Assembly: GCA_049509455.1 (NCBI GenBank)
Contig: JBEKZX010000009.1
Span: 1 to 45,309 of the forward strand
Reading direction: 5' to 3'
Source: Conexivisphaerales archaeon
GTDB lineage: Archaea > Thermoproteota > Nitrososphaeria > Conexivisphaerales > DTJL01
Length of the DNA stretch: 45,309 bases
The notes beneath the pieces are model-generated. The model was given only the letters and a program-made list of their open reading frames with translations. It had not been told where the DNA came from and ran no database searches. Shown piece after piece: positions 2,159 through 37,653 of the stretch (positions are counted from its first letter, which is position 1; the number at the start of each line of letters is the position of its first letter). The position numbers and the translations under genes are program-made.

Positions 2159-3700
2159 CTAGTAACCGTAGAGTTCGGAGCACTTCGCGTCAAGGTAGTC
2201 GATGTAGTGCCTGACGTTGATGCCCTCCCCCGTGATCTTCTTGAGCAGGTCGAGAGGGTCGTAGAGGTTGCCGTAGGCGTAGAGGTTCTTGCTCAGCCAA
2301 TTCCTCACCGGGCTGAACTCGCCCTTCGAAATGCTCGCCCGCCACTCCGGCAGCTCGGCTTCCAGGATGTGCCTGATCTGGCCGCCGTAGATGTTGCCCA
2401 GAGCGTAGGACGGGAAGTAGCCGTAGAGGCCGCTGGCCCAGTGAGTGTCCTGCATCACTCCCTCTGAATCGTTGTCAATCTTCAGGCCAAGGTACTCTCC
2501 GTACTTCTCGTTCCACACGGTGGGAAGCTCGGCGACCGAAATCTTCCCTGCGAACAGGTCGCGCTCGATCTCGAAGCGGACGATGATGTGGAAGCCGTAT
2601 GTCACTTCGTCGGACTCGATCCTGATCTTCGACGGCTGGACGGCGTTGATGGCCTTCACGAAGGGCCCCAGCTCCACCCCTGAGAAGGCGCCGCCCGTCA
2701 TGGCCTTGAGAGTGGGCAGATAATAGGTCCAGAACTCCTTGGATCGCCCCACCATGTTCTCAACGAACCTTGACTGCGATTCGTGGAAGCCGAAGGAGCA
2801 TGCAGAACCGACCGGCTGGAACATCCAATCCCGAGGGAGGTTCTGCTCGTATGTCGCATGCCCGGCCTCGTGAAGGACAGAGAAGATGGAGGATGTGGGA
2901 AGGCCCTCGTAGTAGTGGGTGGTGATTCGGACGTCGTCGTAATAGCCGGTTGTGAAGGGATGCTCCGTCTCATCGACGCGCCCTCCCGCTCGCTTTGAAT
3001 CGACGTCATAGAGAAGGAAGTTGGACAAGGAGACGGCAATCTCCCGCTGCTCTTCGACCGGAACCCGCCGACGAAGGAGGTTCGCATCAGGCTGATCGCG
3101 CGAGGCGAGGCATTTGTCCATCACGGCCTTTATCCCCTTCCTCAGATCGCTGAACACGGGGGATATCAAAGCGGACGTCATCTTCGGCTCAAACCTGTCG
3201 ACGAGGGCGTCGTAGGCGGTCTCGGTCCGCTTGACGTCCTTCAGTATGGAAGCCGCTTCCTTCGATAGGTCGACCAGCTTCTGCAGCTCTGGCTTGAAGG
3301 CCCCGAAATCTTTAGCCGCCTTCGCCTTCTTCCAGACGTCAATCGTGAGTGCCCTCTGTCGAGCCATTTCGGTGACCAGTCGCTCGGGGAGCTTGGTCTC
3401 TTCGTCGTAACCCTTTCGAAGTAGTGTTACGTTTCTCCGCTGGACATCGGAAAGGTTCGCGAACGCGCTGTCTTTCTCGACGCCCCCCAACAGTTCGCCA
3501 ATCCTCGGGTTGATGACCATCCTGTGGGCCACCTGGCTCATCAGCGAAAGTTGCTCGCTCCTGAGACGGATGCCCCGAGGAGGCATCTTGGTTTCAAGAT
3601 CCCACTCGACAAGAGCTTGAGTTGTGGCCAGAACAATGTAGTCCTTGGAGAGGGACAGGAGCTCATCATACATTCCTTGTAGAGTGACTAGGTCGACCAA
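2159..3700 (-). CDS. Thermostable carboxypeptidase, M32 (Taq) family
   Basis: HPF, HEAGH (HExxH), HESQS, SKIRIESDE and QDTHW...GYFPSY motifs. Start uncertain: TTG 3724, TTG 3700 or ATG 3673. Confidence 0.95.
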   Translation of the reverse strand: MVDLVTLQGMYDELLSLSKDYIVLATTQALVEWDLETKMPPRGIRLRSEQLSLMSQVAHRMVINPRIGELLGGVEKDSAFANLSDVQRRNVTLLRKGYDEETKLPERLVTEMARQRALTIDVWKKAKAAKDFGAFKPELQKLVDLSKEAASILKDVKRTETAYDALVDRFEPKMTSALISPVFSDLRKGIKAVMDKCLASRDQPDANLLRRRVPVEEQREIAVSLSNFLLYDVDSKRAGGRVDETEHPFTTGYYDDVRITTHYYEGLPTSSIFSVLHEAGHATYEQNLPRDWMFQPVGSACSFGFHESQSRFVENMVGRSKEFWTYYLPTLKAMTGGAFSGVELGPFVKAINAVQPSKIRIESDEVTYGFHIIVRFEIERDLFAGKISVAELPTVWNEKYGEYLGLKIDNDSEGVMQDTHWASGLYGYFPSYALGNIYGGQIRHILEAELPEWRASISKGEFSPVRNWLSKNLYAYGNLYDPLDLLKKITGEGINVRHYIDYLDAKCSELYGY

Positions 3701-3801
3701 TGTGTCGCCCCTCAAGACAGTCAAGCCAGTCGATAATAAACCTATGACCGAAGAGAACGACTGTAGATGCCAAACAGGAAGCGCCCGGCGAGTGCTTACG
3801 A

Positions 3802-4314
3802 ATGAGCCTGCGGCCTAGGCGCGTCAGGCACGAGATCGACCTCATCGCCGTGGCGAAGGGCAATGCGACCATGGTCGAATGCAAGTACCACAACTACAAG
3901 GGGGTGTTCACTGGTCTGAAGGAAGCCATGTACACCTACGCCCGCCTCCTGGACATCCGAGAGGGGTACGCCATTGACCATCTCGGCGCCAAAATAGAGA
4001 AGGCTATGCTCGTGACGAACACCAAATTCTCGGAGGACGCGATAACTTTCTCCAGCTGCAGGGACATCGAGCTCCTAGGCTGGCATCACCCGGAGAGGAA
4101 CGGGCTCGAGAGGATAATCGACACCGGAAGGCTCTACCCCATCACGACCCTCCATAGTCTGGAGGCCGATGAGACGGCTGCGCTGGCCAAGTGCGGCCTG
4201 ATTCTGGTCCGCGACCTCCTCCGTTTCAACCTGGGTGACATCTCGGAGAAGACCGGCATCTCCGGTCACAGGCTCGGAGGGCTCTCCGGCCAGGCTCGCG
4301 ATCTCCTGGGTTGA
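3802..4314 (+). CDS. PD-(D/E)xK restriction-endonuclease-like (Mrr-type) protein, N-terminally short
   Basis: HEIDLIA...VECKYH catalytic motif; LVTNTKFS and YPITTL motifs of the archaeal ATP-cone/Mrr-like family. Confidence 0.75.
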   Translation: MSLRPRRVRHEIDLIAVAKGNATMVECKYHNYKGVFTGLKEAMYTYARLLDIREGYAIDHLGAKIEKAMLVTNTKFSEDAITFSSCRDIELLGWHHPERNGLERIIDTGRLYPITTLHSLEADETAALAKCGLILVRDLLRFNLGDISEKTGISGHRLGGLSGQARDLLG

Positions 4315-4339
4315 CTAGGGAGATCAGGACAATGGATAA

Positions 4340-5395
4340 ATGAGCGAACGCCGTCTCACGCACCTGCACTTGCAACCGGATCACCCTAGAGTCGAAGCGG
4401 CTTTCTGGAGGGAGGCGGAGGGACGGAGGACCAAGTGCTACCTCTGCCCCAGGTTCTGCTCCGTCCCCGAGGGAAGCGTGGGCTTCTGCGGAGTGAGGGG
4501 TAACTTCGGCGGGAAGATGTACGCGTTGAGCTACGGCCGCCTGACGGCTTGCGCCGTGGACCCCATAGAGAAGAAGCCTCTCTTCCATTTCAAGCCGGGG
4601 AGCCACGTACTGTCGATATCGACCGCGGGTTGCAGTTTCGCTTGCCAGTTCTGCCAGAACTTCGAAATTAGCCAAAGGCGACGAGTGGAGGAAGGATACA
4701 CCGGGCCGGAGGAGGTGGTCGATTCCGCCCTTGAGCTGGGTGCCGACGGAATCACCGGCACCTACAACGAGCCCACCACTCAGATTGAATACCTATTGGA
4801 CGTCATGAAGCTGGCAAGGAAGAAGGGGCTCTTCACCACATGGGTCTCCAACGGATACATGACGCCGGAGGCGGTGGAGGCCCTCGCCCCCCACCTCGAC
4901 GCCATTACGGTCGACTTCAAGGGGAACGCCAACGTGCAGTTCTACAGGAAGTACATCTACGTGCCTTCGCCTGCGCCGATATTCGACGCCATAAGGGAGC
5001 TTCAGGCCAGGAAGGTGCATGTGGAAGTGACCAACCTCGCGGTGCCGGTGCCGGAAGGTAGCGACTTGGGGGATGTGAAGAAGATTGCAGACTTCCTCCT
5101 GGACGTCCAGGGAGAAGACGCTTCGTTCCATCTCCTGGCCTTCCATCCCGACTACAAGATGCTCAACGTCCCAGCCTCCCCTCCGGAGATGCTCCTAAAG
5201 ATGTATGCGATCGCAAAGGAGGCAGGCATAAAATACGTCTACATCGGGAACGTGGGGGAGGACAAATACGAAACGACGTTCTGCCCAGTATGCTCCACTG
5301 CCGTGGTGGTCCGCAGCATCTTAGGCGTCAAGAAGAACGTCCTGAAAGGGAGCAGCTGCCCCACCTGCGGCTTCCGGCTCCCTATAGTCACTTAG
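4340..5395 (+). CDS. amrS: AmmeMemoRadiSam-system radical SAM enzyme (PFL-activase-like)
   Basis: N-terminal CYLCPRFC, DPIEKKPLFHFKPG, CxxxCxxC (CSFACQFC), TYNEP, C-terminal CPVC/CPTC. Confidence 0.9.
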   Translation: MSERRLTHLHLQPDHPRVEAAFWREAEGRRTKCYLCPRFCSVPEGSVGFCGVRGNFGGKMYALSYGRLTACAVDPIEKKPLFHFKPGSHVLSISTAGCSFACQFCQNFEISQRRRVEEGYTGPEEVVDSALELGADGITGTYNEPTTQIEYLLDVMKLARKKGLFTTWVSNGYMTPEAVEALAPHLDAITVDFKGNANVQFYRKYIYVPSPAPIFDAIRELQARKVHVEVTNLAVPVPEGSDLGDVKKIADFLLDVQGEDASFHLLAFHPDYKMLNVPASPPEMLLKMYAIAKEAGIKYVYIGNVGEDKYETTFCPVCSTAVVVRSILGVKKNVLKGSSCPTCGFRLPIVT

Positions 5396-27867: not shown

Positions 27868-29655
27868 CTAGGCACTGTCCTTCCCCACCGTTTCGATTCT
27901 CTTCAACTGGCTATTGTACATTTCCAGAAGCTCGGCGGTGGTCGTCGTGTCCTCCGGCCCCTTGTCGTCCCGAATCCTCCCCGTGAACTTGGGGAACCGA
28001 AGGGCGAGCCCGGCAGCAGGCGTCACCTTCCCCCACGCCGCGACATGAATGGGGGAGAGGGTGATCTCCGACGCGATCACTTCGAATACCAGCTGCGGGA
28101 CGAACCAGACATCAGCCTCCAGCTTCGAGATTACGCGTGGATGGACGTGAGGGATGACCAGCGCCGCCAGCCTCTTGGGTATCTCCTCCAGGCTGGCATC
28201 AGTGAAGCCTGTGCCAATCTTACAGACGGTCTTAAAGGTGTCGTCCTCTTTGTCGTAGGCGGCGAGCAAATAGGCTCCGTAGGTTCCCGTCCTCCTCCCT
28301 CGGCCGTGGAAAGCGCCCACCACCACGAGGTCCAGAGTATCGGAAAGTTCGCTCCTGTACTCCCTCTTGAGCTTGATCCAAGCGAACGCCCTGGCGCCAG
28401 CCCTGTAAGGGCTCCTCAAGTCCTTAGCGACGAGTCCCTCGCAACCCTGCTGAATTGCGTCCTTCATGAAGGAGTCGATCTTGGACGGACTGTCGGTCAC
28501 GATGGATGGCGCGACGCAGGTCCTATCTGTTTTCTCAACGATCTTCTCCAGCTCCTTCCTCCTTTCTTCGTAGGGCTTGTCCAAGTAGCTGATGCCGTCG
28601 GCGTACATGACATCGAAGAAGAAGAGTGCCACGGGGAACTTCTCCATCATCTCCTCCACGCCGTGCTTTCTGCGCCTGTGCATTAGCTGCTGGAAGGGGA
28701 GGAGCTCCCCCGAGTCCACGTCGAAGGCGACACCTTCGCATTCGAGGATAGCGTCCTTCGCTTTGACGTGCTCTACGGCCAGTTTGACCGTGTCGGGGTA
28801 ATGGGAGGTAATGACCTCCAACCTTCGAGAGAACAGGGTCACCTGATCGCCCTTCTTGTGGATCTGCATCCTTTCGCCGTCATACTTGAACTCCACAGCG
28901 CACCTGCCGCCCAGCTTTTCCTCAATCACCCCGGCCGACGGCAGCCTCTCCGCCAGCATCGGTCGGATGGGCTTCCCCACCGTGACTGCGAATCCGGCTA
29001 GGACGTTTAACCCTCCTTCCGCCACCGCCTCGGCGACCGCGCCCAAATCCGAGGAGATATTGTAGGCCCTTTCGAGGGCTGGCCGATTAGCCCTGTCGCC
29101 CGTGTAGGCCTGGGCCAGGGCATCCAGGATGGTGAAATCAGCCACACCCAAGCGGAGCTGTCCCAGGGTCGTCCTGATGAGATATCGGGCCTCCTTCGGA
29201 GTGGCCCGGTTGATGAGGCTGACAAGAGACTTTAGCTTGGACCCCTGCGAACCGGTGCCCTTCAGGTGAGCGAGGGAATCCATGGCCGAATAGACATCCG
29301 AGACCGTGAGCAGCTCTTGGGAGAGCGTCGACTGCAGTCGCCTGCCCGCGGCCTCCTCCGCCGCCGTTCCTAAGTCGCCCTTCTCCCTGTAAAGATTCTC
29401 CACCAGAGCCACCGTCACTCCGGTGGCGTCGGCGATGGCGCGGACCACCAGCTTGTCTCCGAGGCCTATCTCCACCCCGAGGTAGTCGGGGTAGAGCTTC
29501 CCCTGGTTGAGATACGTCACCTTGGCGACGTCCTCGAATCTGGTCTGCGCGTAGAGGCTCACTAGGATGTCGGTGAGCTCCAGCCTCTTGGTCGTCTCCT
29601 CCATGGCTTCGTACGCCTCGACCAGCCTAGAGTAGGGAAGGGACTTTCTTGGCAT
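27868..29655 (-). CDS. lig: ATP-dependent DNA ligase
   Basis: RPMLAER, EFKYDGER (adenylated Lys), EGLVAK, WIKLK, ALRFPKF motifs. Confidence 0.98.
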   Translation of the reverse strand: MPRKSLPYSRLVEAYEAMEETTKRLELTDILVSLYAQTRFEDVAKVTYLNQGKLYPDYLGVEIGLGDKLVVRAIADATGVTVALVENLYREKGDLGTAAEEAAGRRLQSTLSQELLTVSDVYSAMDSLAHLKGTGSQGSKLKSLVSLINRATPKEARYLIRTTLGQLRLGVADFTILDALAQAYTGDRANRPALERAYNISSDLGAVAEAVAEGGLNVLAGFAVTVGKPIRPMLAERLPSAGVIEEKLGGRCAVEFKYDGERMQIHKKGDQVTLFSRRLEVITSHYPDTVKLAVEHVKAKDAILECEGVAFDVDSGELLPFQQLMHRRRKHGVEEMMEKFPVALFFFDVMYADGISYLDKPYEERRKELEKIVEKTDRTCVAPSIVTDSPSKIDSFMKDAIQQGCEGLVAKDLRSPYRAGARAFAWIKLKREYRSELSDTLDLVVVGAFHGRGRRTGTYGAYLLAAYDKEDDTFKTVCKIGTGFTDASLEEIPKRLAALVIPHVHPRVISKLEADVWFVPQLVFEVIASEITLSPIHVAAWGKVTPAAGLALRFPKFTGRIRDDKGPEDTTTTAELLEMYNSQLKRIETVGKDSA

Positions 29656-30870: not shown

Positions 30871-31812
30871 GTGAAGGCGCTGGTTACCGGGGGAGCGGGG
30901 TTCATAGGAAGCGCGCTCTGCGCCTCCCTCGTGAAGGGGGGGCATGAAGTCACGGCTTTCGACAACCTGAGCAGCGGCTCCGAGAAGAACTTGGCGGCCC
31001 TATCGAGGAGTCCCGGTTTCAGGTTCGTCAAGGGCGACTGCAAGGTCGAGGAGGACGTCACGGAGGCCCTTCGCGATGCGAATACTGTATTTCACCTGGC
31101 GGCGAACCCCGAGGTGCGTCAGGAGAGGGCGAGCCCGAGGGAGTCCTTCGACGAGAACGTCGTCGCCACGAAGGTCCTCCTCGAGGCGGTCAGGGGGAGC
31201 GACGTCAGGGAAATGGTCTTCGCCTCCACCTCCACGGTCTACGGGGAGCCCACAGTCCTCCCCACCCCCGAGAGCTACTCCCCCCTGGTCCCCATCTCCG
31301 TCTACGGCGCCACCAAGCTCGCCTCCGAGGCCCTGGTTTCGGCCTTCGCCAAGTCCTTCTCCTTCGACGCCCGCATCCTCAGGCTGGCCAACATAGTGGG
31401 ACCAAGGGGCGCGCACGGCGTCATCTTCGACTTCGTCAGGAAGTTGAGGAGGGACCCGACGAGGCTCGTGATACTGGGTGACGGCACCCAGAGGAAGTCC
31501 TATCTCTACGTCGACGACTGCGTCAGGGCCATGATCGAGGTGCTCCATCGAGAGGAGAGGGTCTCCTTCTACAACGTCGGGTCGAAGGACCAGGTGAGCG
31601 TCACCGAGATAGCCGACATCATCTGCGGGGAGATGGAGGTCTCCCCGGCCTACAGGTTCACCGGCGGCGTGGACGGCGGGAGAGGATGGAGGGGGGACGT
31701 TAAGGAAATGCTCCTCGACACCGCCAGAATCGAATCGCTGGGCTGGAGGCCCAAGTACGACAGCGCCCAGGCGGTCAGGAAGACGGCGTTCGAGATACTG
31801 AAGAAAGGATAG
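30871..31812 (+). CDS. NAD-dependent epimerase/dehydratase (UDP-glucose 4-epimerase-like)
   Basis: VTGGAGFIGS, HLAANP, ASTSTVYG, YGATK and GDGTQRKSYLYV motifs. Confidence 0.95.
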   Translation: MKALVTGGAGFIGSALCASLVKGGHEVTAFDNLSSGSEKNLAALSRSPGFRFVKGDCKVEEDVTEALRDANTVFHLAANPEVRQERASPRESFDENVVATKVLLEAVRGSDVREMVFASTSTVYGEPTVLPTPESYSPLVPISVYGATKLASEALVSAFAKSFSFDARILRLANIVGPRGAHGVIFDFVRKLRRDPTRLVILGDGTQRKSYLYVDDCVRAMIEVLHREERVSFYNVGSKDQVSVTEIADIICGEMEVSPAYRFTGGVDGGRGWRGDVKEMLLDTARIESLGWRPKYDSAQAVRKTAFEILKKG

Positions 31813-31915
31813 CCACTTCTTCATCGGTGAGAGGTCGATTTACCGCATTAAACGTGGTCGCACTGGTGTGCGAAGGACGGCGGGGTCGAGCAGCCAGACG
31901 ACAATCGACCATCCG

Positions 31916-32788
31916 TCATGACTCTAACACGTACCTCGCAAGCTCCGGCCTCCCCCTCGTCGACACGTACACCCCGGGAAGCCTCGCATTGCGTATCTCC
32001 TCGACGACCCGCCTCGCCTCCTTTAGGAGGCTGGCCTCGCCTCTTACTGCAACCTCCTCGAGCTTCCGTGGTATCTCCCACCCGAACCTGCTCCTGCAAG
32101 ATTCGATATCAACGAGGCTCCTGAACGGAAAGACGTTGAGGAGGACCTTCTCCCTGAGCCCTCGCAGGGCCAGGGCCTCCTCATGCTTCTTCAGCACCAC
32201 CGTCGCCTCCGAAGTCGGCGGCTGCGCCAAGAAGAAGCTCGCCCCGCTCTTGAGCCTGGACCTCGCCAGCCTGAGGCCCCTCTCTGTCGAAAGGGATGTG
32301 ATGTCCACCGGGGCGAGCAGCGACGCCTGGACGTTGGCCCTTCTGGAAAGCTGCTTGAACTCCCTGATCATCTCTCCGAGGGAGGCGAAGTCGTGGACGT
32401 TCCTCGCCTCCTCCCCAATGTACTTGTCCCCCCATGCCAAGAACACCGTGTCGAGGCCGCAGGCGAGCGCCGTGAGGAACGTATCCCTCGCCGCCACCCT
32501 GTTCACGTCCCTGGCCGTCATCGCCGGGACGGCCTCCACCCCCAGCTCCCTCTTCAGGACGGCCGCAGAGTAGATGCTAGATAGCCTAAGCCTTCCGAAG
32601 TCCATGGGGTCGGCTACGAGGAACGCATCAGCCAGCTCCTCCACCTTCCTCACCCTCGAGACGAAGTCCCTGGTCTTCTGGTCCAGCCCCAGTAGTGGCT
32701 CTCGCGTACCGTCCGCATCGAAACTCGGGGGGAGGACCTCCACGATCGTGGCGAAGACGCCCCTCGCGAGCTTCTCTCCCAGCCTCAA
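31916..32788 (-). CDS. Methylenetetrahydrofolate-reductase-like flavoprotein (MetF fold)
   Basis: IVEVLPP, TARDVN, LAWGD and FFLAQP motifs; last gene of the MetE cluster. Confidence 0.75.
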   Translation of the reverse strand: MRLGEKLARGVFATIVEVLPPSFDADGTREPLLGLDQKTRDFVSRVRKVEELADAFLVADPMDFGRLRLSSIYSAAVLKRELGVEAVPAMTARDVNRVAARDTFLTALACGLDTVFLAWGDKYIGEEARNVHDFASLGEMIREFKQLSRRANVQASLLAPVDITSLSTERGLRLARSRLKSGASFFLAQPPTSEATVVLKKHEEALALRGLREKVLLNVFPFRSLVDIESCRSRFGWEIPRKLEEVAVRGEASLLKEARRVVEEIRNARLPGVYVSTRGRPELARYVLES

Positions 32789-34036
32789 CTAGTCAATTAC
32801 CTTCTGCCTATAGCCAAGAGACGGACCCTGGAGGGAGGCCTCCGCTCTGCCCAGCTCCAAGGTGAGGTAGGCCAGGTGCCTCCTGCTTATCCCCAGCTTG
32901 TCAGCCTCTTCGTCCAGCGACTGGAAGATCCTCTCGGCGCTCCGCGACCTGAACCTCCTGAGGGGAACGTGGGAGTATGAGTAGAGGGTGACCACTATCT
33001 CGCTGCTCTCCCTCTTCACCAGGACCAGGAAGTAGCCCACCTTGTCCCGCTGCCTGGGGCCCAGGGGGGAGGGTGACGCCTCTTCGATCTGCCCTCCATA
33101 TAGATCGTCCCTGGCGAGGGTCATTTGGACGTTCTTCTGGTACGCCACCTCTCTGGGCAGGTTCCTCTGGCCGCAGTGGGGATGGACGAACTCGATCCTG
33201 TCCTCCCCCAGCTTGGCCTTGGCCAGCTGCAGCGTCCTCCCTATTTCGTCGACACCTTCGACTCTGATGTCCTGGCTGTCGTTGCACCCCAGCCCCAGGA
33301 GCTGGTCGTAGCCCCTCCCGGCCGCCTCCTCCAGGAGCCTCCTATAGTGGTAGAAGTCAAGGGAGAGCGTGCCGACCTTTAGCCTGGTCAGGAGAGGGAA
33401 GACCCGCGTGGTGTCCCCACAGGCGTGGAGCACTATGGGAAACTTGGCGACGCTGGCGACCTCTTCGTAGAGGTCTTCGATGTAGTGGGGGGTCGACGAC
33501 TCGGCGGCTATGAAGGGCGAGTCCAGCTGGATCCAAGAGACCGCGCCGGTTTGCTGGAGGTCCTCTATCTCCGGAATGACCACCTTCCTGTTGATGTCCT
33601 CTGCCAGCTCTTTCGTGTCAGGGTACGAATCGTTACTAATCTTAGCGAACCTGGCCAGCGTGTACGCGTCCGTCACTGGCTCCTTCAACTTGAACTGTGG
33701 CGGCAGGAGGCTTCTGGCGTGCCTGACGTCGCCGGCTATAGAGGAGCTCATCCTCTCCACCCTGCCGGTGACGAAGGCCTCAGCTCCCTTCCATTCTATC
33801 CCCCTCACGAACTTCGGGTCGAGGAAGAGGGAGTAGAGGTCCCCTCTCGTCTGCCCCGTGGAAGGGACCTCCACGCCGGCTGACACGAAGTCCTTCAAGG
33901 CCTCCTCCGCGGACCACAGGTAGGGGTCGACCAAGTCGTCCGCCACTCCTAGCTTCGTCATCTTCTGGTAGTACTCGACGTCATCGGTCCGAGGGAAGAC
34001 GGGGTACGAGCCGATCGTTGTGGTCTTGGGGATCAA
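32789..34036 (-). CDS. Core cobalamin-independent methionine-synthase-like protein fused to a C-terminal DUF4346-like domain
   Basis: TTTIGSYP, TGQTRGD, IQLDSP, LHACG and PHCG; last 86 aa (GYFLV...HLAYLTLELGRAEASL) match the DUF4346 pattern as recalled; TTG 34036 overlaps the upstream TGA and has an AGGAGGT SD. Confidence 0.78.
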   Translation of the reverse strand: MIPKTTTIGSYPVFPRTDDVEYYQKMTKLGVADDLVDPYLWSAEEALKDFVSAGVEVPSTGQTRGDLYSLFLDPKFVRGIEWKGAEAFVTGRVERMSSSIAGDVRHARSLLPPQFKLKEPVTDAYTLARFAKISNDSYPDTKELAEDINRKVVIPEIEDLQQTGAVSWIQLDSPFIAAESSTPHYIEDLYEEVASVAKFPIVLHACGDTTRVFPLLTRLKVGTLSLDFYHYRRLLEEAAGRGYDQLLGLGCNDSQDIRVEGVDEIGRTLQLAKAKLGEDRIEFVHPHCGQRNLPREVAYQKNVQMTLARDDLYGGQIEEASPSPLGPRQRDKVGYFLVLVKRESSEIVVTLYSYSHVPLRRFRSRSAERIFQSLDEEADKLGISRRHLAYLTLELGRAEASLQGPSLGYRQKVID

Positions 34037-35217
34037 GCGCAGACCTCCTTCCTCGCCAAGGCCGCTCCGTCCACGACCAGGTCCAAGCACTTGATGGCAA
34101 CTTCAGGGCTCCTCGTCCTCAGTCCACAGTCCGGGTTGATGTAGAGCCTTTCCGGCGGAAGCTCCGTGACCTTCGCGGAATAGAGGATCCTGTCCCTCAC
34201 CACGGCGACCTCAGGGAGGACGTCGGTATGAACATGTACCACGCCTACGCCCAGCTCACCTTCGTAGCCGTACTCCTTGAAGAGCTTGAGGTCTTTGAAC
34301 CCCTCTCTAGACTCGCCGTCGAGCCCCGTCTTGAGGGAGTCCCTGTTCGCGTATTCGAAGGAGAACCTTCGGCACTTCATCTCAAGGAGCTGCGGAAAGA
34401 GGAGGCCGTAACCGACGCTCGGCGGGAAGCAGCTGTGCACGCTGAACGTCGCCAACAGGCCCTTGGTCGTCTCGTTGAAAGCCTCCGAAACGAGCTCTAT
34501 GTCCTCCACCGTCTGGTACTGGGTCGCTGCCGGGATGTCCATCTGCACCTCCTCCGCGCCATTCTCTATCAACCCCCGGATCACCCTCCGTATCGTCTTG
34601 GCCAGCTCCAGGGTGAACTCCCGTCTCGCGCTGAAGCTCCTCTCAAGAGGAGGCATATCCTTCCTCGCCCACTTCCTTCCGTAGTAGGAGTTGTCAGACC
34701 AAGCCATAATGGTTATCGCATCCGTGACCGGGACCTTCACCCTCCTGACGGCGTGCTTCTTGGTGAACAGGAATTCGTCGAGGTGATAGTTCCCCTTGTA
34801 GGCAGGAGGGGCCCGGATGGAGGCCATCTTCCAGTACTTGTTGTCGAAGCTCCTCACACTCCCTATGAACTCGAAGCCCCCTATGCCGGAGACGGGCGTT
34901 TCGTACATCTCCGTCCTCGCCTGCTCCCCGCTCCAAACCAGGTCTAGCCCCACGCCTTCGCCGGAGCCGGCCCTCTCCTCCATCTTTATGGCGTAGAGGA
35001 GGGAAAATTCGACGAGCCTGTGCTTCTCCTCCTCCGAAAAGCCGTCCCTCTTTGAAAGGAGATTGAGGAGGTCCCCCGTCCCGGGCACTCTGAACCTCTC
35101 CCCCCAATCCCTCGCCGTCTTGACGTCGGCGTCAACCAACGGCACACCACGGAAGGGTTTCGTCCTCCACGAGAACTTGGGGAGGCTCCCTATCTCCTGA
35201 GTCGGGAAGGCCTTCAA
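34033..35217 (-). CDS. metE: Cobalamin-independent methionine synthase, catalytic (C-terminal half) subunit
   Basis: PTQEIGSLP, GEQARTEM, QMDIPA, VHSC, EYANR and INPDCGLRT, giving Zn ligands H/C/E/C. Confidence 0.88.
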   Translation of the reverse strand: MKAFPTQEIGSLPKFSWRTKPFRGVPLVDADVKTARDWGERFRVPGTGDLLNLLSKRDGFSEEEKHRLVEFSLLYAIKMEERAGSGEGVGLDLVWSGEQARTEMYETPVSGIGGFEFIGSVRSFDNKYWKMASIRAPPAYKGNYHLDEFLFTKKHAVRRVKVPVTDAITIMAWSDNSYYGRKWARKDMPPLERSFSARREFTLELAKTIRRVIRGLIENGAEEVQMDIPAATQYQTVEDIELVSEAFNETTKGLLATFSVHSCFPPSVGYGLLFPQLLEMKCRRFSFEYANRDSLKTGLDGESREGFKDLKLFKEYGYEGELGVGVVHVHTDVLPEVAVVRDRILYSAKVTELPPERLYINPDCGLRTRSPEVAIKCLDLVVDGAALARKEVCA

Positions 35218-35218
35218 T

Positions 35219-36202
35219 CTAGTCAGCCCCTCCCCTCAGCTCTTTCTTCACCCGGCCGAGCTTCCCGAGCTTCTCGTCGGCGGAGGCTCGGGGTATGTAC
35301 CTCAGGTCGCTAGACGGAGCCAATATGATCGAAGGGCTCCCGGTCTTGTCGGCGATCTCCTCCACCTCACGCCTCAGCTTACCTACATCCTCCGCCCACG
35401 TGCTGCGGGAGTCCACTATGCCGGCGATCAGGCCCTTCCCAGTCTTTGAGAGGGACGAAGGGTCAGTCTGCGTGAAGTCAAAACCGATGTCTTGGGTTGG
35501 GATGGCATCGAATATGAAAGGGAGATAGGAAGAGGCGTCCCCGAAATACGTGTGAAAGCCCGAGCGGAGAGACACGCCTCGCAGGGCCGACCGCAGCGCC
35601 TCTCCGAGCTGAATAAGGGCATCTCTGGAGATGGGCTCCTTCCGGAACCTCGCGGTTAGGTAGGGCGAGGACAGCTGCACGTAACCCACGCCGCGACCTT
35701 CAAGAAACCTCAGCTCCGTATTCAGAGCCTCGGCGTAGACGAAGAGGAGCTTATCGAAGTTACCATAATGCCTATCCTCGGCGAGCTCGCAGAACGTCAA
35801 GGGGTCTGGGACGATCACCTTGAACGGGCTGCCGCGCCTCACCAACGTCCTTTCGACGCTCCTCCACAGGGCCCTCCCTTCGCTCGTCAGGTCACCATCG
35901 ACGATCGGGACGTAGTAGAACGTGTTGGTGTTGAACCACCTGACCAGCGGCCCCTTTCGGAGACCCCCGAAACCGTCGGTGATGGGCCTAAGGAAGTCCT
36001 GCCATGGCAAGCCCATCTGGCCATCGGAGAAGTGGTCCACGCCGACCCTCTTCTGGAGCGCCAGAAGGGATTCGCAGTCCTCTCGGAAGGACTTCGCCAG
36101 CGTTCGGGAATCTACCCTCCTCCTCTCCCAGTCCTGCGTCACGCGGATGGTCGCTTCGCTCCTGGCGTGGACGCCGCTCAGCGCCAGCAGAAACTCGGTC
36201 AA
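35219..36202 (-). CDS. MetE N-terminal-half-like protein (split methionine synthase partner)
   Basis: DGQ, RWFNTNTFYYVP (compare KWFDTNYHY), GIVDSRSTW; lacks Zn ligands; GGAGTGA SD before TTG. Confidence 0.82.
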   Translation of the reverse strand: MTEFLLALSGVHARSEATIRVTQDWERRRVDSRTLAKSFREDCESLLALQKRVGVDHFSDGQMGLPWQDFLRPITDGFGGLRKGPLVRWFNTNTFYYVPIVDGDLTSEGRALWRSVERTLVRRGSPFKVIVPDPLTFCELAEDRHYGNFDKLLFVYAEALNTELRFLEGRGVGYVQLSSPYLTARFRKEPISRDALIQLGEALRSALRGVSLRSGFHTYFGDASSYLPFIFDAIPTQDIGFDFTQTDPSSLSKTGKGLIAGIVDSRSTWAEDVGKLRREVEEIADKTGSPSIILAPSSDLRYIPRASADEKLGKLGRVKKELRGGAD

Positions 36203-36304
36203 TTGCCATCACTCCTGAAGGTCCGACCTGTCTTCATCCGGCATTCAACAGTCTCAGCTAGAACTCGCGAGCAGAGATATTAGGTTATTGAATTCGAACT
36301 GCCA

Positions 36305-36832
36305 TTAAGGCCCTTTACAGCTACCCAGCGCCCCGCCGCGGCATCCTCCGCCTAGGTCCTTACGCAGCACGTTTTCGCCGGCGACGGCCTGCATTTCGAG
36401 CATCATGTAGACCGATCTCAGCCTGCCGTGGAGCTTCGACATTTCGCCGAAGCCCGTCTTCAAGAACCCCCTCGAATGGAAGAGGGAAAGTGAGGCCGCG
36501 TTGCCCTCCCTCACCGTGGCGTAGACAGAACCCACCTCCCTTGACTTGAAGTGCGCGAGAGCATCGTCCAGCAACCGGCTGCCCACCTCCCGCCTCCTGA
36601 ACTCTGGGAGGACCGCTACGTAGTACACGTATCCGATCCCCTCCCCCAGCTCCTTCAGCATGATTAGACCTGCCGTCGCTCCGCCGAGGGTCGCCGCATT
36701 CACCAGGCTCACCCTCTTGAGGGTCCTCCTGGAATGCCAAAGGTACCAGCCCTCGAAGCTCCCTCCGAGGATGGGCAGGAGGGAGTCCCTCTCCTCGGGA
36801 GGGACCTCCGCGATGCCAATCTCCCCTCTCAG
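36305..36832 (-). CDS. GNAT-family N-acetyltransferase
   Basis: YVAVLPEFRRREVGSRLL motif A; NAASLSLF..RGF; frame extends 40 codons upstream of the ORF-track start to a CTG overlapping the upstream TGA. Confidence 0.88.
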   Translation of the reverse strand: MRGEIGIAEVPPEERDSLLPILGGSFEGWYLWHSRRTLKRVSLVNAATLGGATAGLIMLKELGEGIGYVYYVAVLPEFRRREVGSRLLDDALAHFKSREVGSVYATVREGNAASLSLFHSRGFLKTGFGEMSKLHGRLRSVYMMLEMQAVAGENVLRKDLGGGCRGGALGSCKGP

Positions 36833-37653
36833 ATGGGGAACACCTTCTTGGCGTTGGAGTAGAGGACCCTGTCGAAGTCATCCCTGTGAAGCTTCAGCTT
36901 GCTCACGAAGGAGAGCGCCGACTGGTAGGTTTCCACGGGGTAGTCGGTGCCGAACAGGAACTTGTCGGCGCTTCCCGTGAAATAGATCGCATTGCTCACC
37001 CTTTCGGACAGGTACTCGATGTATTTGCTGGAGTACTTCGCCTCCACGGCGAAGAGGCCGGAGATGTCGGCGTATACGTTCCTGTGCTTGTAGACCAGCT
37101 CCGCCGCGTCTTCAACCCACGGGTTCCCCAAGTGGCAGACGACGATTTTCAGGGAGTCCCTAGCGTTCGCCAGAGCGTCGAGGTTAAGGGGATGGGCGTG
37201 TCGAAGGCTCGCGTTGGGGAGGCCCGTGTCGCCCGTGTGAAACATCACAGGGAGGCCCTCCGACTCGGCGAACTCGTAGAGGGGGGAGAAGACGGCGTCG
37301 TCAGGGTAGAAGGGGACGTAGCCCAATCGCACTTTGAACCCCTTCACTTCACCTCGATTCCTCTTTGCCGTCACGACGCACTCTCGCACGGCGGCGGGGC
37401 TGGGCTCGACTGTGAGGACGGGGAAGAGCCTGCCACGGCTCCTGGAGCAGAGGTCCAGGACGCGCTGATTCCCGACGATCGTGTTGTCTAGGAGGGGCGG
37501 ACTCAAGAGCAGTCCGGCCTCTACCCCGTTCTCCTCCATCAGGTGCAGTAATTCCTTCAGTTCATAGCGCAGGCCGTTGGCTTCCGCGAAGGGGCGCAGG
37601 GCATCACCGCGGAGCTCAGAGAGGTGAATATGGACGTCTATAATCCTGCTCAT
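36829..37653 (-). CDS. Amidohydrolase_2-family metal-dependent hydrolase
   Basis: IDVHIH, MFHTGD, CHLGNP, ADIS and FGTDYP motifs. Confidence 0.92.
   Translation of the reverse strand: MSRIIDVHIHLSELRGDALRPFAEANGLRYELKELLHLMEENGVEAGLLLSPPLLDNTIVGNQRVLDLCSRSRGRLFPVLTVEPSPAAVRECVVTAKRNRGEVKGFKVRLGYVPFYPDDAVFSPLYEFAESEGLPVMFHTGDTGLPNASLRHAHPLNLDALANARDSLKIVVCHLGNPWVEDAAELVYKHRNVYADISGLFAVEAKYSSKYIEYLSERVSNAIYFTGSADKFLFGTDYPVETYQSALSFVSKLKLHRDDFDRVLYSNAKKVFPI

What the first reader, a model, noticed from the sequence alone, without database searches (positions are those of the whole stretch)
31916..36202. Four-gene methionine/C1 operon with three MetE-fold genes and a MetF-like reductase
Seen: four co-oriented genes are translationally coupled (1-nt gap at 35218, TTGA overlap at 34033-34036, TAG directly followed by TTG at 32789/32788). 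They encode a MetE N-half, a Zn-bearing MetE C-half, a second Zn-motif MetE core with an extra domain, and a MetF-like protein. Established: split MetE (N plus C halves) is known in archaea and uses methyl-pterin/folate, while stand-alone core synthases (MesA-type) use other methyl donors such as corrinoid proteins. Inference: two catalytic cores in one operon suggests either two alternative methyl-donor routes to Met or a second Zn-thiol methyltransferase with a different acceptor. This is the best candidate in the window for an undescribed system.
Basis: partly seen in the sequence, partly recalled or inferred. Interest (0 to 1): 0.8.

Follow-up and report, generated by a model that had tools for sequence, protein, structure and literature searches.

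The report
Methionine operon with extra MetE-DUF4346 enzyme
[quoted passage not shown] The relatives of that second enzyme need a vitamin-B12 carrier protein, and these organisms appear to lack one.

Summary
Four minus-strand genes (36202-31916) are joined by a 1-nt gap, a TTGA overlap and an abutting TAG/TTG. They encode a Zn-less MetE N-barrel (P0001), a MetE C-barrel with full Zn and homocysteine residues (P0002), a second core fused to PterinBD-DUF4346 (P0005, 415 aa) and a divergent MTHFR (P0004).

The first two genes are the split MetE already described by Price et al. 2021. The new part is P0005 plus P0004.
- P0005 is only 25% identical to P0002.
- Its Zn ligands are invariant (H204, C206, D227, C288), as are S10, Q62 and D172.
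- In quick trees it groups with MesA-like (PRK00957-type) cores that sit in corrinoid-relay operons.
- The earliest-branching fused relative (P0120) lies in an MtrA-MtrH operon beside an MTHFR gene.

The same four genes recur in about 40 species genomes of acid-soil, peat and groundwater Thaumarchaeota. In 19 of these genomes I found no MtrA, MtrH, CdhD or CobS. A capped corrinoid protein occurs in only two.

My reading is a methionine methyl-branch operon whose second transferase lost its B12 relay and probably draws on methyl-pterin from P0004. The donor is unproven.

This scan's first readers noted the same kind of cluster on two other genomes. I found no paper that describes it.

The parts
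35219..36202 (-). P0001, 327 aa: the Zn-less N-terminal-barrel subunit of split MetE (Meth_synt_1), TTG start
   Evidence: Pfam Meth_synt_1 1.2e-17 and NCBIfam PRK08575/PRK04326 about 82 bits. It has no H-x-C or final Cys motif. Orthologues lie directly upstream of MetE-C in nearly all related loci.
34033..35217 (-). P0002, 394 aa: the catalytic C-barrel subunit of split MetE. Its motifs are IGS, SGEQ, MAWS, QMDIP, VHSC, SFEY and NPDCG.
   Evidence: Pfam Meth_synt_2 1.8e-19; NCBIfam PRK04326 197 bits and PRK01207 187 bits. It is 44-48% identical to the roughly 335-aa split MetE-C of sister families. Its motifs are aligned.
33077..34036 (-). P0005 residues 1-320: a MesA-like core MetE barrel. 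Invariant residues are H204, C206, D227 and C288 (Zn) and S10, Q62 and D172 (homocysteine-binding positions).
   Evidence: Alignment A1 of 35 homologues. Profile alignment to T. maritima MetE. AlphaFold model with pLDDT 90.9, whose best Foldseek match is the MetE C-domain at 3e-20. Best NCBIfam model is PRK00957, 135.7 bits against a cut-off of 258. Trees.
32789..33076 (-). P0005 residues 321-415 plus the stop codon: a linker and the PterinBD-DUF4346 domain (three strands, two helices, one short strand)
   Evidence: Pfam PF14251 35.6 bits. The genome scan places it at 32822-33046 and finds it to be the only copy in the genome. A profile of this domain retrieves canonical DUF4346 proteins. The domain model has pLDDT 87.
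31916..32788 (-). P0004, 290 aa: a divergent methylene-tetrahydropterin reductase of the MTHFR family, TTG start abutting the stop codon of P0005
   Evidence: Pfam MTHFR 38.8 bits. hhalign gives 93.8% probability over 265 columns to a canonical MTHFR. The family keeps invariant E17 and G120-D121, near-invariant Q189 and invariant F235. It is the only MTHFR hit in the genome.
36276..36292 (-). AT-rich box TTCAATAACCTAATATC, about 75-90 nt upstream of the P0001 start codon: a possible archaeal TATA element for the operon (weak inference)
   Evidence: Read directly from the sequence. It was not tested. No Rfam element was found in 31500-37000.

Best explanation
This is a methionine methyl-branch operon. 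P0004 reduces methylene-pterin, which the genome's SHMT can supply, to methyl-pterin. P0001 and P0002 form the known split MetE, which methylates homocysteine directly from methyl-pterin. P0005 is a second Zn-dependent homocysteine methyltransferase. It descends from the MesA-like cores that work in corrinoid relays (MtrA or a corrinoid protein, plus MtrH). In this lineage, which does not make cobamides, the relay has gone while the link to the reductase has stayed. P0005 therefore most likely takes its methyl group without a corrinoid, from the methyl-pterin made by P0004. The fused DUF4346 domain, and possibly the P0001 barrel, would supply the carrier-binding surface that a bare core lacks. 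Shown here: the gene identities, the catalytic residues, the conserved synteny, the descent, and that no relay or cobamide-synthesis gene was found. Inferred: homocysteine as the acceptor of P0005, methyl-pterin as its donor, and the role of DUF4346.
For: Synteny:
- The order MetE-N, MetE-C, fusion, MTHFR holds in nearly all 42 species loci and further metagenome contigs.
- The fusion and MTHFR stay paired where no split MetE lies within 5 kb (L068/L015), and where the order is swapped beside a Cys_Met_Meta_PP gene (L078).
- Within the order (36 genomes), strong P0004 matches occur only in the genomes with the fusion.

Own genome (95.5% complete): the only Meth_synt_2 genes and the only MTHFR are in this operon. 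There is no MetH/BHMT-type domain. SHMT is present.

Descent:
- The fused cores form one clade, sister to PRK00957-type cores.
- One such core lies between a corrinoid protein and MtrH (L003).
- The earliest-branching fused form, P0120, lies in an MtrA-MtrH operon next to a canonical MTHFR.

Loss of the relay in 19 distinct fusion-bearing genomes: MtrA 0, MtrH 0, CdhD 0, CobS 0, and B12-binding_2 in 2.

P0005 has the S/Q/D triad that Price et al. report for MesA and MesC, and the HCDC zinc set reported for the active MesB (PMC7857596).

DUF4346 is fused only to one-carbon or pterin enzymes among the 53 long hits checked: MtrA 37, thymidylate synthase 5, Pterin_bind 4.
Against: - The Trp that stacks on the pterin ring in MetE (T. 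maritima W539; its role is recalled from Pejchal and Ludwig 2005) is kept in P0002. In the fused clade it is Phe, Ser, Thr or Glu, so P0005 cannot bind pterin the way MetE does.
- In P0120 the same core-DUF4346 fusion coexists with MtrA and MtrH. DUF4346 therefore does not by itself replace a corrinoid relay.
- From memory (Schroeder and Thauer 1999), characterised MesA does not use methyl-pterins in vitro.
- The MTHFR gene in the operon is already explained by the split MetE alone.
- DUF4346 has no structural relative that points to ligand binding.
- No DHPS was found in G000 or G442, so the nature of the carrier is unknown.
- The FAD-contact motifs of canonical MTHFR are not recognisable in P0004.
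- Absences in MAGs are never proof.
Confidence: 0.42

Rival explanations
1. P0005 is still corrinoid-dependent. It would work with imported B12 bound to an unrecognised carrier, or with free methylcobalamin. The operon would then hold a B12-independent route (split MetE) and a B12-dependent route, like MetE and MetH in bacteria.
For: Its closest relatives are embedded in corrinoid relays. It has Gln at the Glu484 position, as MesA and MesC do. The pterin-stacking Trp is not conserved. DUF4346 is most often fused to MtrA-like corrinoid proteins (37 of 53). The genome does carry B12-binding domains. A two-route design would explain why both cores persist.
Against: In 19 genomes no MtrA, MtrH or CdhD was found, and capped corrinoid proteins occur in only 2. 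The corrinoid cluster on contig 24 occurs only in G000 and G442. CobS was found in none. Each of these genomes has a single DUF4346 copy, so there is no second DUF4346-bearing protein such as an MtrA-DUF4346 fusion for it to pair with. No methyl-pterin:corrinoid methyltransferase is in sight.
Confidence: 0.2
2. P0005 has changed its chemistry. Either it methylates homocysteine from an activated sulfonium donor (S-methylmethionine or S-adenosylmethionine, as MmuM and BHMT-type enzymes do), or it methylates a thiol other than homocysteine.
For: Two intact cores have been kept side by side over long divergence, down to 40% identity, which argues for separate jobs. The ancestral donor system is gone. 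The genome has no PF02574-type homocysteine S-methyltransferase. The family uses Asp where MetE has Glu665 and Ser in the D-S-P motif where MetE has D-E-P. One family member, P0115, has Lys at the Ser433 position.
Against: S10, Q62 and D172 match the homocysteine-binding pattern of MesA and MesC and are nearly invariant. The tight, conserved coupling to MTHFR predates the loss of the relay (L076) and points to a pterin-derived methyl group. One relative sits next to a Cys_Met_Meta_PP gene.
Confidence: 0.15
3. P0005 is not an independent enzyme. It would be a further subunit of one larger split-MetE complex, for example an alternative or regulatory partner of the P0001 barrel, and would do no turnover of its own.
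For: All four genes are translationally coupled. MetE barrels pair as pseudo-dimers. P0005 lacks its own N-barrel.
Against: The Zn and substrate residues are invariant across the family. The fusion-MTHFR pair also occurs without an adjacent split MetE (L068). A relative works with MtrA and MtrH instead.
Confidence: 0.08

Closest known systems
Split MetE of archaea (Pyrococcus PF1268/PF1269; Price, Deutschbauer and Arkin 2021, PMC7857596; still listed as 'predicted' in GapMind 2026, PMC13759103)
   Same: P0001 and P0002 are an adjacent Meth_synt_1 protein and Meth_synt_2 protein. P0002 has the HCEC zinc set and the S/E/D homocysteine residues. The predicted donor is methyl-pterin.
   Different: Here the pair is followed by a third MetE-fold gene and an MTHFR gene. 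P0002 carries an extra stretch of about 55 residues near its N-terminus compared with the roughly 335-aa forms in sister families. It scores below the NCBIfam equivalog cut-offs.
MesA, the core methionine synthase of methanogens (METE_METTM; methylcobalamin:homocysteine methyltransferase)
   Same: The P0005 core matches the PRK00957-type model best. It has Gln at the Glu484 position. In the trees it is sister to roughly 300-aa cores of that type.
   Different: P0005 has a C-terminal DUF4346 domain and scores half the model's cut-off. It occurs in non-methanogens in which MtrA, MtrH and CobS were not found. It is locked to an MTHFR and a split MetE.
MtrA-MtrH-core MetE-DUF4346 operons of non-methanogenic archaea
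   Same: They share the core-DUF4346 fusion architecture (P0120) and an adjacent MTHFR. P0120 is the earliest branch of the same clade.
   Different: Those operons carry the corrinoid protein and the methyl-pterin:corrinoid methyltransferase. In the window's family those two positions are taken by the split MetE genes, and the relay genes were not found anywhere in the genomes.
YitJ-type bifunctional homocysteine S-methyltransferase/MTHFR (NCBIfam PRK08645) and bacterial metE-metF operons
   Same: A methylene-pterin reductase is physically or genetically tied to a Zn-thiol homocysteine methyltransferase. PRK08645 is the only NCBIfam hit of P0004.
   Different: The YitJ transferase domain is of the MetH/BHMT type (PF02574), not the MetE fold. 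There is no DUF4346 and no second synthase.

Membership tests
Split MetE (Price et al. 2021) | A separate protein of at most 400 aa whose best domain is Meth_synt_1 | tested here: met
   P0001 is 327 aa. It scores 64.8 bits for Meth_synt_1 and 15.8 bits for Meth_synt_2.
Split MetE (Price et al. 2021) | A catalytic component scoring at least 200 bits against Pyrococcus PF1269 | tested here: inconclusive
   PF1269 itself was not available. The PRK04326 model gives 197 bits, below its cut-off of 406. P0002 is 44-48% identical to ordinary split MetE-C proteins in the same order and groups with the PRK04326 type in the trees.
Split MetE (Price et al. 2021) | The two components are adjacent, and the catalytic one has Zn ligands H/C/E/C and substrate residues S/E/D | tested here: met
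   The genes are 1 nt apart. The motifs VHSC, SFEY, NPDCG, IGS, SGEQ and QMD are present.
MesA (core methionine synthase of methanogens) | A core barrel only, with no other domain | tested here: not met
   P0005 carries DUF4346 at residues 331-415.
MesA (core methionine synthase of methanogens) | Close similarity to the family (about 40% identity to METE_METTM, or the equivalog score) | tested here: not met
   PRK00957 gives 135.7 bits against a cut-off of 258. P0005 is about 30% identical to PRK00957-type cores. METE_METTM itself was not compared. That PRK00957 equals MesA is my recollection and was not checked.
MesA (core methionine synthase of methanogens) | Occurs alongside MtrA, its predicted corrinoid donor | tested here: not met
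   MtrA was found in 0 of 21 genome handles and MtrH in 0 of 19.
MesA/MesC residue signature | Ser433, Gln in place of Glu484, and Asp599 | tested here: met
   S10 is nearly invariant, and Q62 and D172 are invariant, in 35 sequences. The positions were mapped on T. maritima MetE. The signature is as given in PMC7857596, section 11.
Full-length MetE (TIGR01371) | A single chain of about 750 aa containing both barrels | tested here: not met
   The TIGR01371 scores are 63, 69 and 27 bits against a cut-off of 930.
MTHFR (PF02219) | A score above the gathering cut-off and full-length homology | tested here: met
   P0004 scores 38.8 bits against a cut-off of 24. hhalign gives 93.8% probability over 265 columns to a canonical MTHFR.
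MTHFR (PF02219) | Catalytic and folate-binding residues (E. coli MetF E28, D120, Q183, F223; numbering from memory) | tested here: met
   E17, D121 and F235 are invariant and Q189 is nearly invariant in 25 family members. They lie in the matching motifs.
MTHFR (PF02219) | FAD-binding motifs (V-T-Y and H-L-T-C) | tested here: inconclusive
   The aligned stretches read VAD and P-V-I-T-A-R-D instead. The cofactor cannot be decided from sequence.
PterinBD-DUF4346 (PF14251) | A score above the cut-off and reciprocal retrieval of family members | tested here: met
   The score is 35.6 bits, or 39.3 bits in the genome scan, against a cut-off of 29.6. A profile of the domain retrieves 53 of 53 long hits that carry PF14251.
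Corrinoid-relay methionine synthase operon (MtrA or corrinoid protein, MtrH, core MetE) | A corrinoid carrier and a methyl-pterin:corrinoid methyltransferase encoded with the core | tested here: not met
   Neither is in the operon. In the fusion-bearing genomes MtrA, MtrH and CdhD were found in none, and B12-binding_2 in 2.

The most novel reading that the evidence does not exclude
P0005 represents a new, fifth kind of methionine synthase. It would be a MesA-type core that became corrinoid-independent after its lineage lost cobamide synthesis. It would use DUF4346 as a new carrier-binding module in place of the MetE N-barrel, and take methyl-pterin handed over from its dedicated, possibly flavin-free, MTHFR partner. 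This would also give DUF4346 its first function.
Probability: 0.3. Interest if true: 0.75.

Novelty: new variant of a known kind. Interest (0 to 1): 0.6.

Why it matters
The natural methyl donors of 'core' methionine synthases are still only predicted, and split MetE itself is still listed as a prediction. This cluster is a natural experiment. A MesA-lineage enzyme has been kept intact for a long time in organisms where no corrinoid carrier, methyl-loading enzyme or cobamide synthase was found. It always sits beside a methylene-pterin reductase and an ordinary split MetE. Working out its donor would show one of two things. Either a corrinoid-dependent methyltransferase can evolve into a corrinoid-free one, or an unknown B12 carrier exists. 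It would also assign a role to DUF4346, a domain found on MtrA homologues, thymidylate synthases and DHPS-like proteins. Finally, it would fix how methionine is made in the abundant but uncultured acid-soil and peat Thaumarchaeota (Gagatemarchaeaceae and relatives).

Tried and rejected
- Complex prediction of P0005 with P0004 gave no verdict, with a score of 0.00. It says nothing either way.
- DUF4346 alone has no useful structural match. Foldseek against the PDB gave nothing below E = 0.1. The VIA wide search gave a best Z of 6.9, to the ribosomal protein PSRP-3, which is at noise level. No solved chain matches by sequence.
- Single-sequence PDB searches with P0005 and P0004 were empty. Only profile searches found MetE and MTHFR.
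- Literature searches for DUF4346, PF14251, IPR025595 and PterinBD returned no papers. The Gagatemarchaeaceae paper does not discuss methionine, folate or cobalamin.
- The corrinoid methyltransferase cluster on contig 24 was considered as the donor for P0005. I rejected it because it occurs only in G000 and G442 among 25 genomes.
- The 'recent degenerate duplicate' idea is rejected.
- I tested whether P0005 might be the sole methionine synthase in the genome with the isolated fusion-MTHFR pair (G403). It is not: other Meth_synt_2 genes are present there.
- I tested whether the divergent upstream MetE-like pairs (L055, L057, L072, L073) had lost their Zn ligands. They have not.
- No Rfam element lies in or around the operon.
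- The careful tree did not finish in the time allowed, so only quick trees with SH-aLRT support and midpoint roots are reported. They contain no authenticated MesA-D or MetE reference sequences.
Full report
**What is there**

The window has about 60% G+C. It lies on contig 130 of a 2.05-Mb genome in 140 contigs, 95.5% complete.

Four minus-strand ORFs run from 36202 to 31916.
- TAG-a-TTG, a 1-nt gap at 35218.
- A TTGA overlap at 34036-34033, with GGAGG about 7 nt upstream.
- TAG directly followed by TTG at 32789/32788.

The third gene starts at the TTG at 34036, not at the upstream GTG. All 35 aligned homologues begin there.

Pfam and NCBIfam give:

| Protein | Size | Match |
|---|---|---|
| P0001 | 327 aa | Meth_synt_1 |
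| P0002 | 394 aa | Meth_synt_2; PRK04326 197 bits, PRK01207 187 bits |
| P0005 | 415 aa | Meth_synt_2 plus PterinBD-DUF4346; best NCBIfam model PRK00957, 135.7 bits against a cut-off of 258 |
| P0004 | 290 aa | MTHFR, 38.8 bits against a cut-off of 24 |

The flanking genes are unrelated to the operon: a GNAT acetyltransferase and an amidohydrolase upstream, and a plus-strand sugar epimerase downstream. No Rfam element is present. An AT-rich box at 36276-36292 may be the promoter. That is inference only.

**What is already known**

Price et al. 2021 (PMC7857596) described split MetE. It consists of adjacent Meth_synt_1 and Meth_synt_2 proteins, found mainly in archaea, and is predicted to use methyl-pterins. 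P0001 and P0002 fit this description.
- P0002 has the H/C/E/C zinc set and the Ser, Glu and Asp homocysteine residues. It also has the Trp of the 'MAWS' motif.
- It is 44-48% identical to the ordinary split MetE-C proteins of about 335 aa in sister families of the same order.
- GapMind 2026 still lists split MetE as predicted and does not mention a third gene.

**The third gene**

P0005 has about 100 clusters (at 90% identity) of full-length homologues. Where they are named, they come from Thaumarchaeota or Nitrososphaerales MAGs, annotated as 'hypothetical' or 'methionine synthase II'.
- In an alignment of 35 homologues (43-70% identical), H204, C206, D227 and C288 are invariant. So are Q62 and D172, and S10 is nearly so.
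- Mapped on T. maritima MetE, these are the four Zn ligands, with Asp in place of Glu665 as in the active MesB. The other three are the homocysteine-binding positions, with Gln in place of Glu484 as in MesA and MesC.
- The AlphaFold model is confident (pLDDT 90.9). Its barrel matches the MetE C-domain (E = 3e-20) and the MesD structure 3RPD.
- P0005 is only 25% identical to P0002 over 229 residues, so it is not a recent duplicate.

**Descent**

In quick maximum-likelihood trees the fused cores form one clade. That clade is sister to cores of about 300 aa from another Thermoproteota family that reach the PRK00957 model (233-260 bits). It is separate from the split MetE-C clade.

Following a lead from earlier notes of this scan, I checked the context of these relatives myself.
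- In L003 the core lies between a corrinoid protein (B12-binding_2 plus B12-binding) and an MtrH homologue.
- In L076/L077 a core-DUF4346 fusion (P0120) follows MtrA and MtrH and faces a canonical MTHFR of 209 bits. P0120 is the earliest branch of the fused clade (SH-aLRT support 94).

The ancestral setting of this lineage is therefore a corrinoid relay fed by an MTHFR. Three caveats apply. The trees are quick ones with midpoint roots. P0120 has a deviant amino-acid composition. No authenticated MesA-D sequences are included.

**Conservation of the cluster**

A scan of species-representative genomes found 42 loci. Their titles include Candidatus Gagatemarchaeum stordalenia and MAGs from acid soil, peat, palsa and groundwater.
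- tblastn shows MetE-N, MetE-C, fusion and MTHFR in that order in nearly all of them. Metagenome contigs show the same at 46-58% identity.
- Variants exist. The fusion-MTHFR pair stands alone in L068/L015. One unrelated gene is inserted in L020. The order is MTHFR then fusion, beside a Cys_Met_Meta_PP gene, in L078.
- In four loci the upstream MetE-like pair is only about 30% identical to P0001/P0002, yet keeps its Zn ligands.

Within the window's own order (36 genomes), strong P0004 matches occur only in the three genomes that have the fusion. The other families have an ordinary split MetE-C and no such MTHFR.

**What the genomes lack**

In the window's genome, the operon holds the only Meth_synt_2 genes, the only MTHFR and the only DUF4346.
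- Not found: a MetH/BHMT-type domain, DHPS, MtrA, and FolD above the cut-off.
- Present: SHMT.

Across 19 distinct fusion-bearing genomes:

| Family | Genomes with a match |
|---|---|
| MtrA | 0 |
| MtrH | 0 |
| CdhD | 0 |
| CobS | 0 |
| B12-binding_2 | 2 |
| DUF4346 | exactly 1 copy in each |
| DHPS | about half |

The three-component corrinoid methyltransferase cluster on contig 24 of this genome occurs only in G000 and its congener G442. It therefore cannot be the general partner of P0005.

**DUF4346**

A profile of the domain retrieved 130 representative proteins. Among 53 long ones, the co-occurring domains are MtrA (37), thymidylate synthase (5), Pterin_bind (4), DUF6513 (3) and Meth_synt_2 (2). 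All are one-carbon or pterin enzymes.

The domain folds confidently as three strands, two helices and a short strand. It has no convincing structural or sequence relative in the PDB. I found no paper that mentions it.

**P0004**

P0004 is homologous to canonical MTHFR along its full length. Its family keeps E17, G120-D121, Q189 and F235. These sit in the motifs that hold E28, D120, Q183 and F223 of E. coli MetF (the E. coli numbering is from memory). The stretches that contact FAD in canonical enzymes are not recognisable, so the cofactor and the electron donor remain open.

**Reading**

Well supported:
- The operon serves methionine synthesis.
- P0001 and P0002 are a split MetE.
- P0004 is a methylene-pterin reductase.
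- P0005 is an intact Zn-thiol methyltransferase of MesA-like descent.

Inferred: P0005 still methylates homocysteine, and it now works without a corrinoid, on methyl-pterin from P0004. The persistent link to the MTHFR speaks for this, as does the fact that no relay or cobamide-synthesis gene was found.

Three points speak against a simple MetE-like mechanism. The pterin-stacking Trp is lost in the fused clade. DUF4346 coexists with MtrA and MtrH in P0120. And the split MetE alone already explains the presence of the MTHFR.

The rivals are a hidden B12 dependence, a change of donor or acceptor, and a non-catalytic subunit role.

The complex prediction for P0005 with P0004 returned no verdict and is not used as evidence.

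**Novelty**

Half of the cluster is already known. The other half is an undescribed variant of the core methionine synthases: a core-DUF4346 fusion tied to an MTHFR, in organisms without the relay.

First readers of this scan noted the same kind of cluster on two other genomes (e1-4009105 and e1-4829807). Follow-up agents described the relay-linked cousins.

Noticed in passing
G000 contig 24, locus L031:7469-12277: This is a three-component corrinoid methyltransferase cluster: a URO-D family protein, a corrinoid protein (B12-binding_2 plus B12-binding, 219 aa), a second URO-D family protein, and a divergently oriented RACo-type reductive activator. A transposase gene lies next to it. Among 25 genomes checked it occurs only in G000 and G442, although CobS was found in none of them. 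Its substrate is unknown; methoxylated aromatics or methylamines would fit a peat or soil heterotroph.
   Followed up: partly
L003:740-3209 (genome G136, another Thermoproteota family): A corrinoid protein, a core MetE of 296 aa (PRK00957, 260 bits) and an MtrH homologue lie in one tight operon. Two small AsnC-type ligand-binding proteins follow. This is a corrinoid-relay methionine synthase without MtrA and without DUF4346.
   Followed up: partly
L076:3555-7134 and L077 (assemblies of runs SRR6514271 and SRR6514274): The operon is MtrA (192 aa), MtrH (289 aa) and a core MetE-DUF4346 fusion (P0120, 407 aa), with a convergent canonical MTHFR of 307 aa. It links the relay operons noted earlier in this scan to the window's family.
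   Followed up: partly
Representative proteins P0117-P0233: DUF4346 is also fused to thymidylate synthase (5 of 53 long hits), to Pterin_bind/DHPS-like proteins with DUF6513 (4 and 3), and above all to MtrA homologues (37). Many stand-alone proteins of about 100 aa also exist. The domain has no known function or solved structure.
   Followed up: partly
window:34033-35217 (P0002): After the IGS motif, P0002 and its orthologues carry an extra stretch of about 55 residues that the roughly 335-aa split MetE-C proteins of sister families lack. Matches to those proteins begin near residue 57-87.
   Followed up: no
L055, L057, L072 and L073, positions about 2700-5000: In four related genomes the two genes upstream of the fusion are only about 30% identical to P0001/P0002 and sit on a long branch of the tree. 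They still keep the H-x-C, Glu and Cys zinc ligands. This may be a replacement or a fast-evolving form of the split MetE pair.
   Followed up: partly
L020:5025-5960: A 311-aa gene with ATPase_2 and WHD_MCM domains (Orc1/Cdc6-like) is inserted between the split MetE pair and the fusion-MTHFR pair in one relative. The fusion and the MTHFR stay overlapping there.
   Followed up: no
G000 and G442, whole genomes: No DHPS (Pterin_bind) was found in the window's genome or its congener, while about half of the other fusion-bearing genomes have one. No FolD scored above the cut-off in G000. How these two organisms obtain their one-carbon carrier is unclear.
   Followed up: no
window:30051-30620 and 27868-29655: A stand-alone CDC48 N-domain protein of 189 aa (CDC48_N 5.6e-21) lies near an ATP-dependent DNA ligase of 595 aa.
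   Followed up: no
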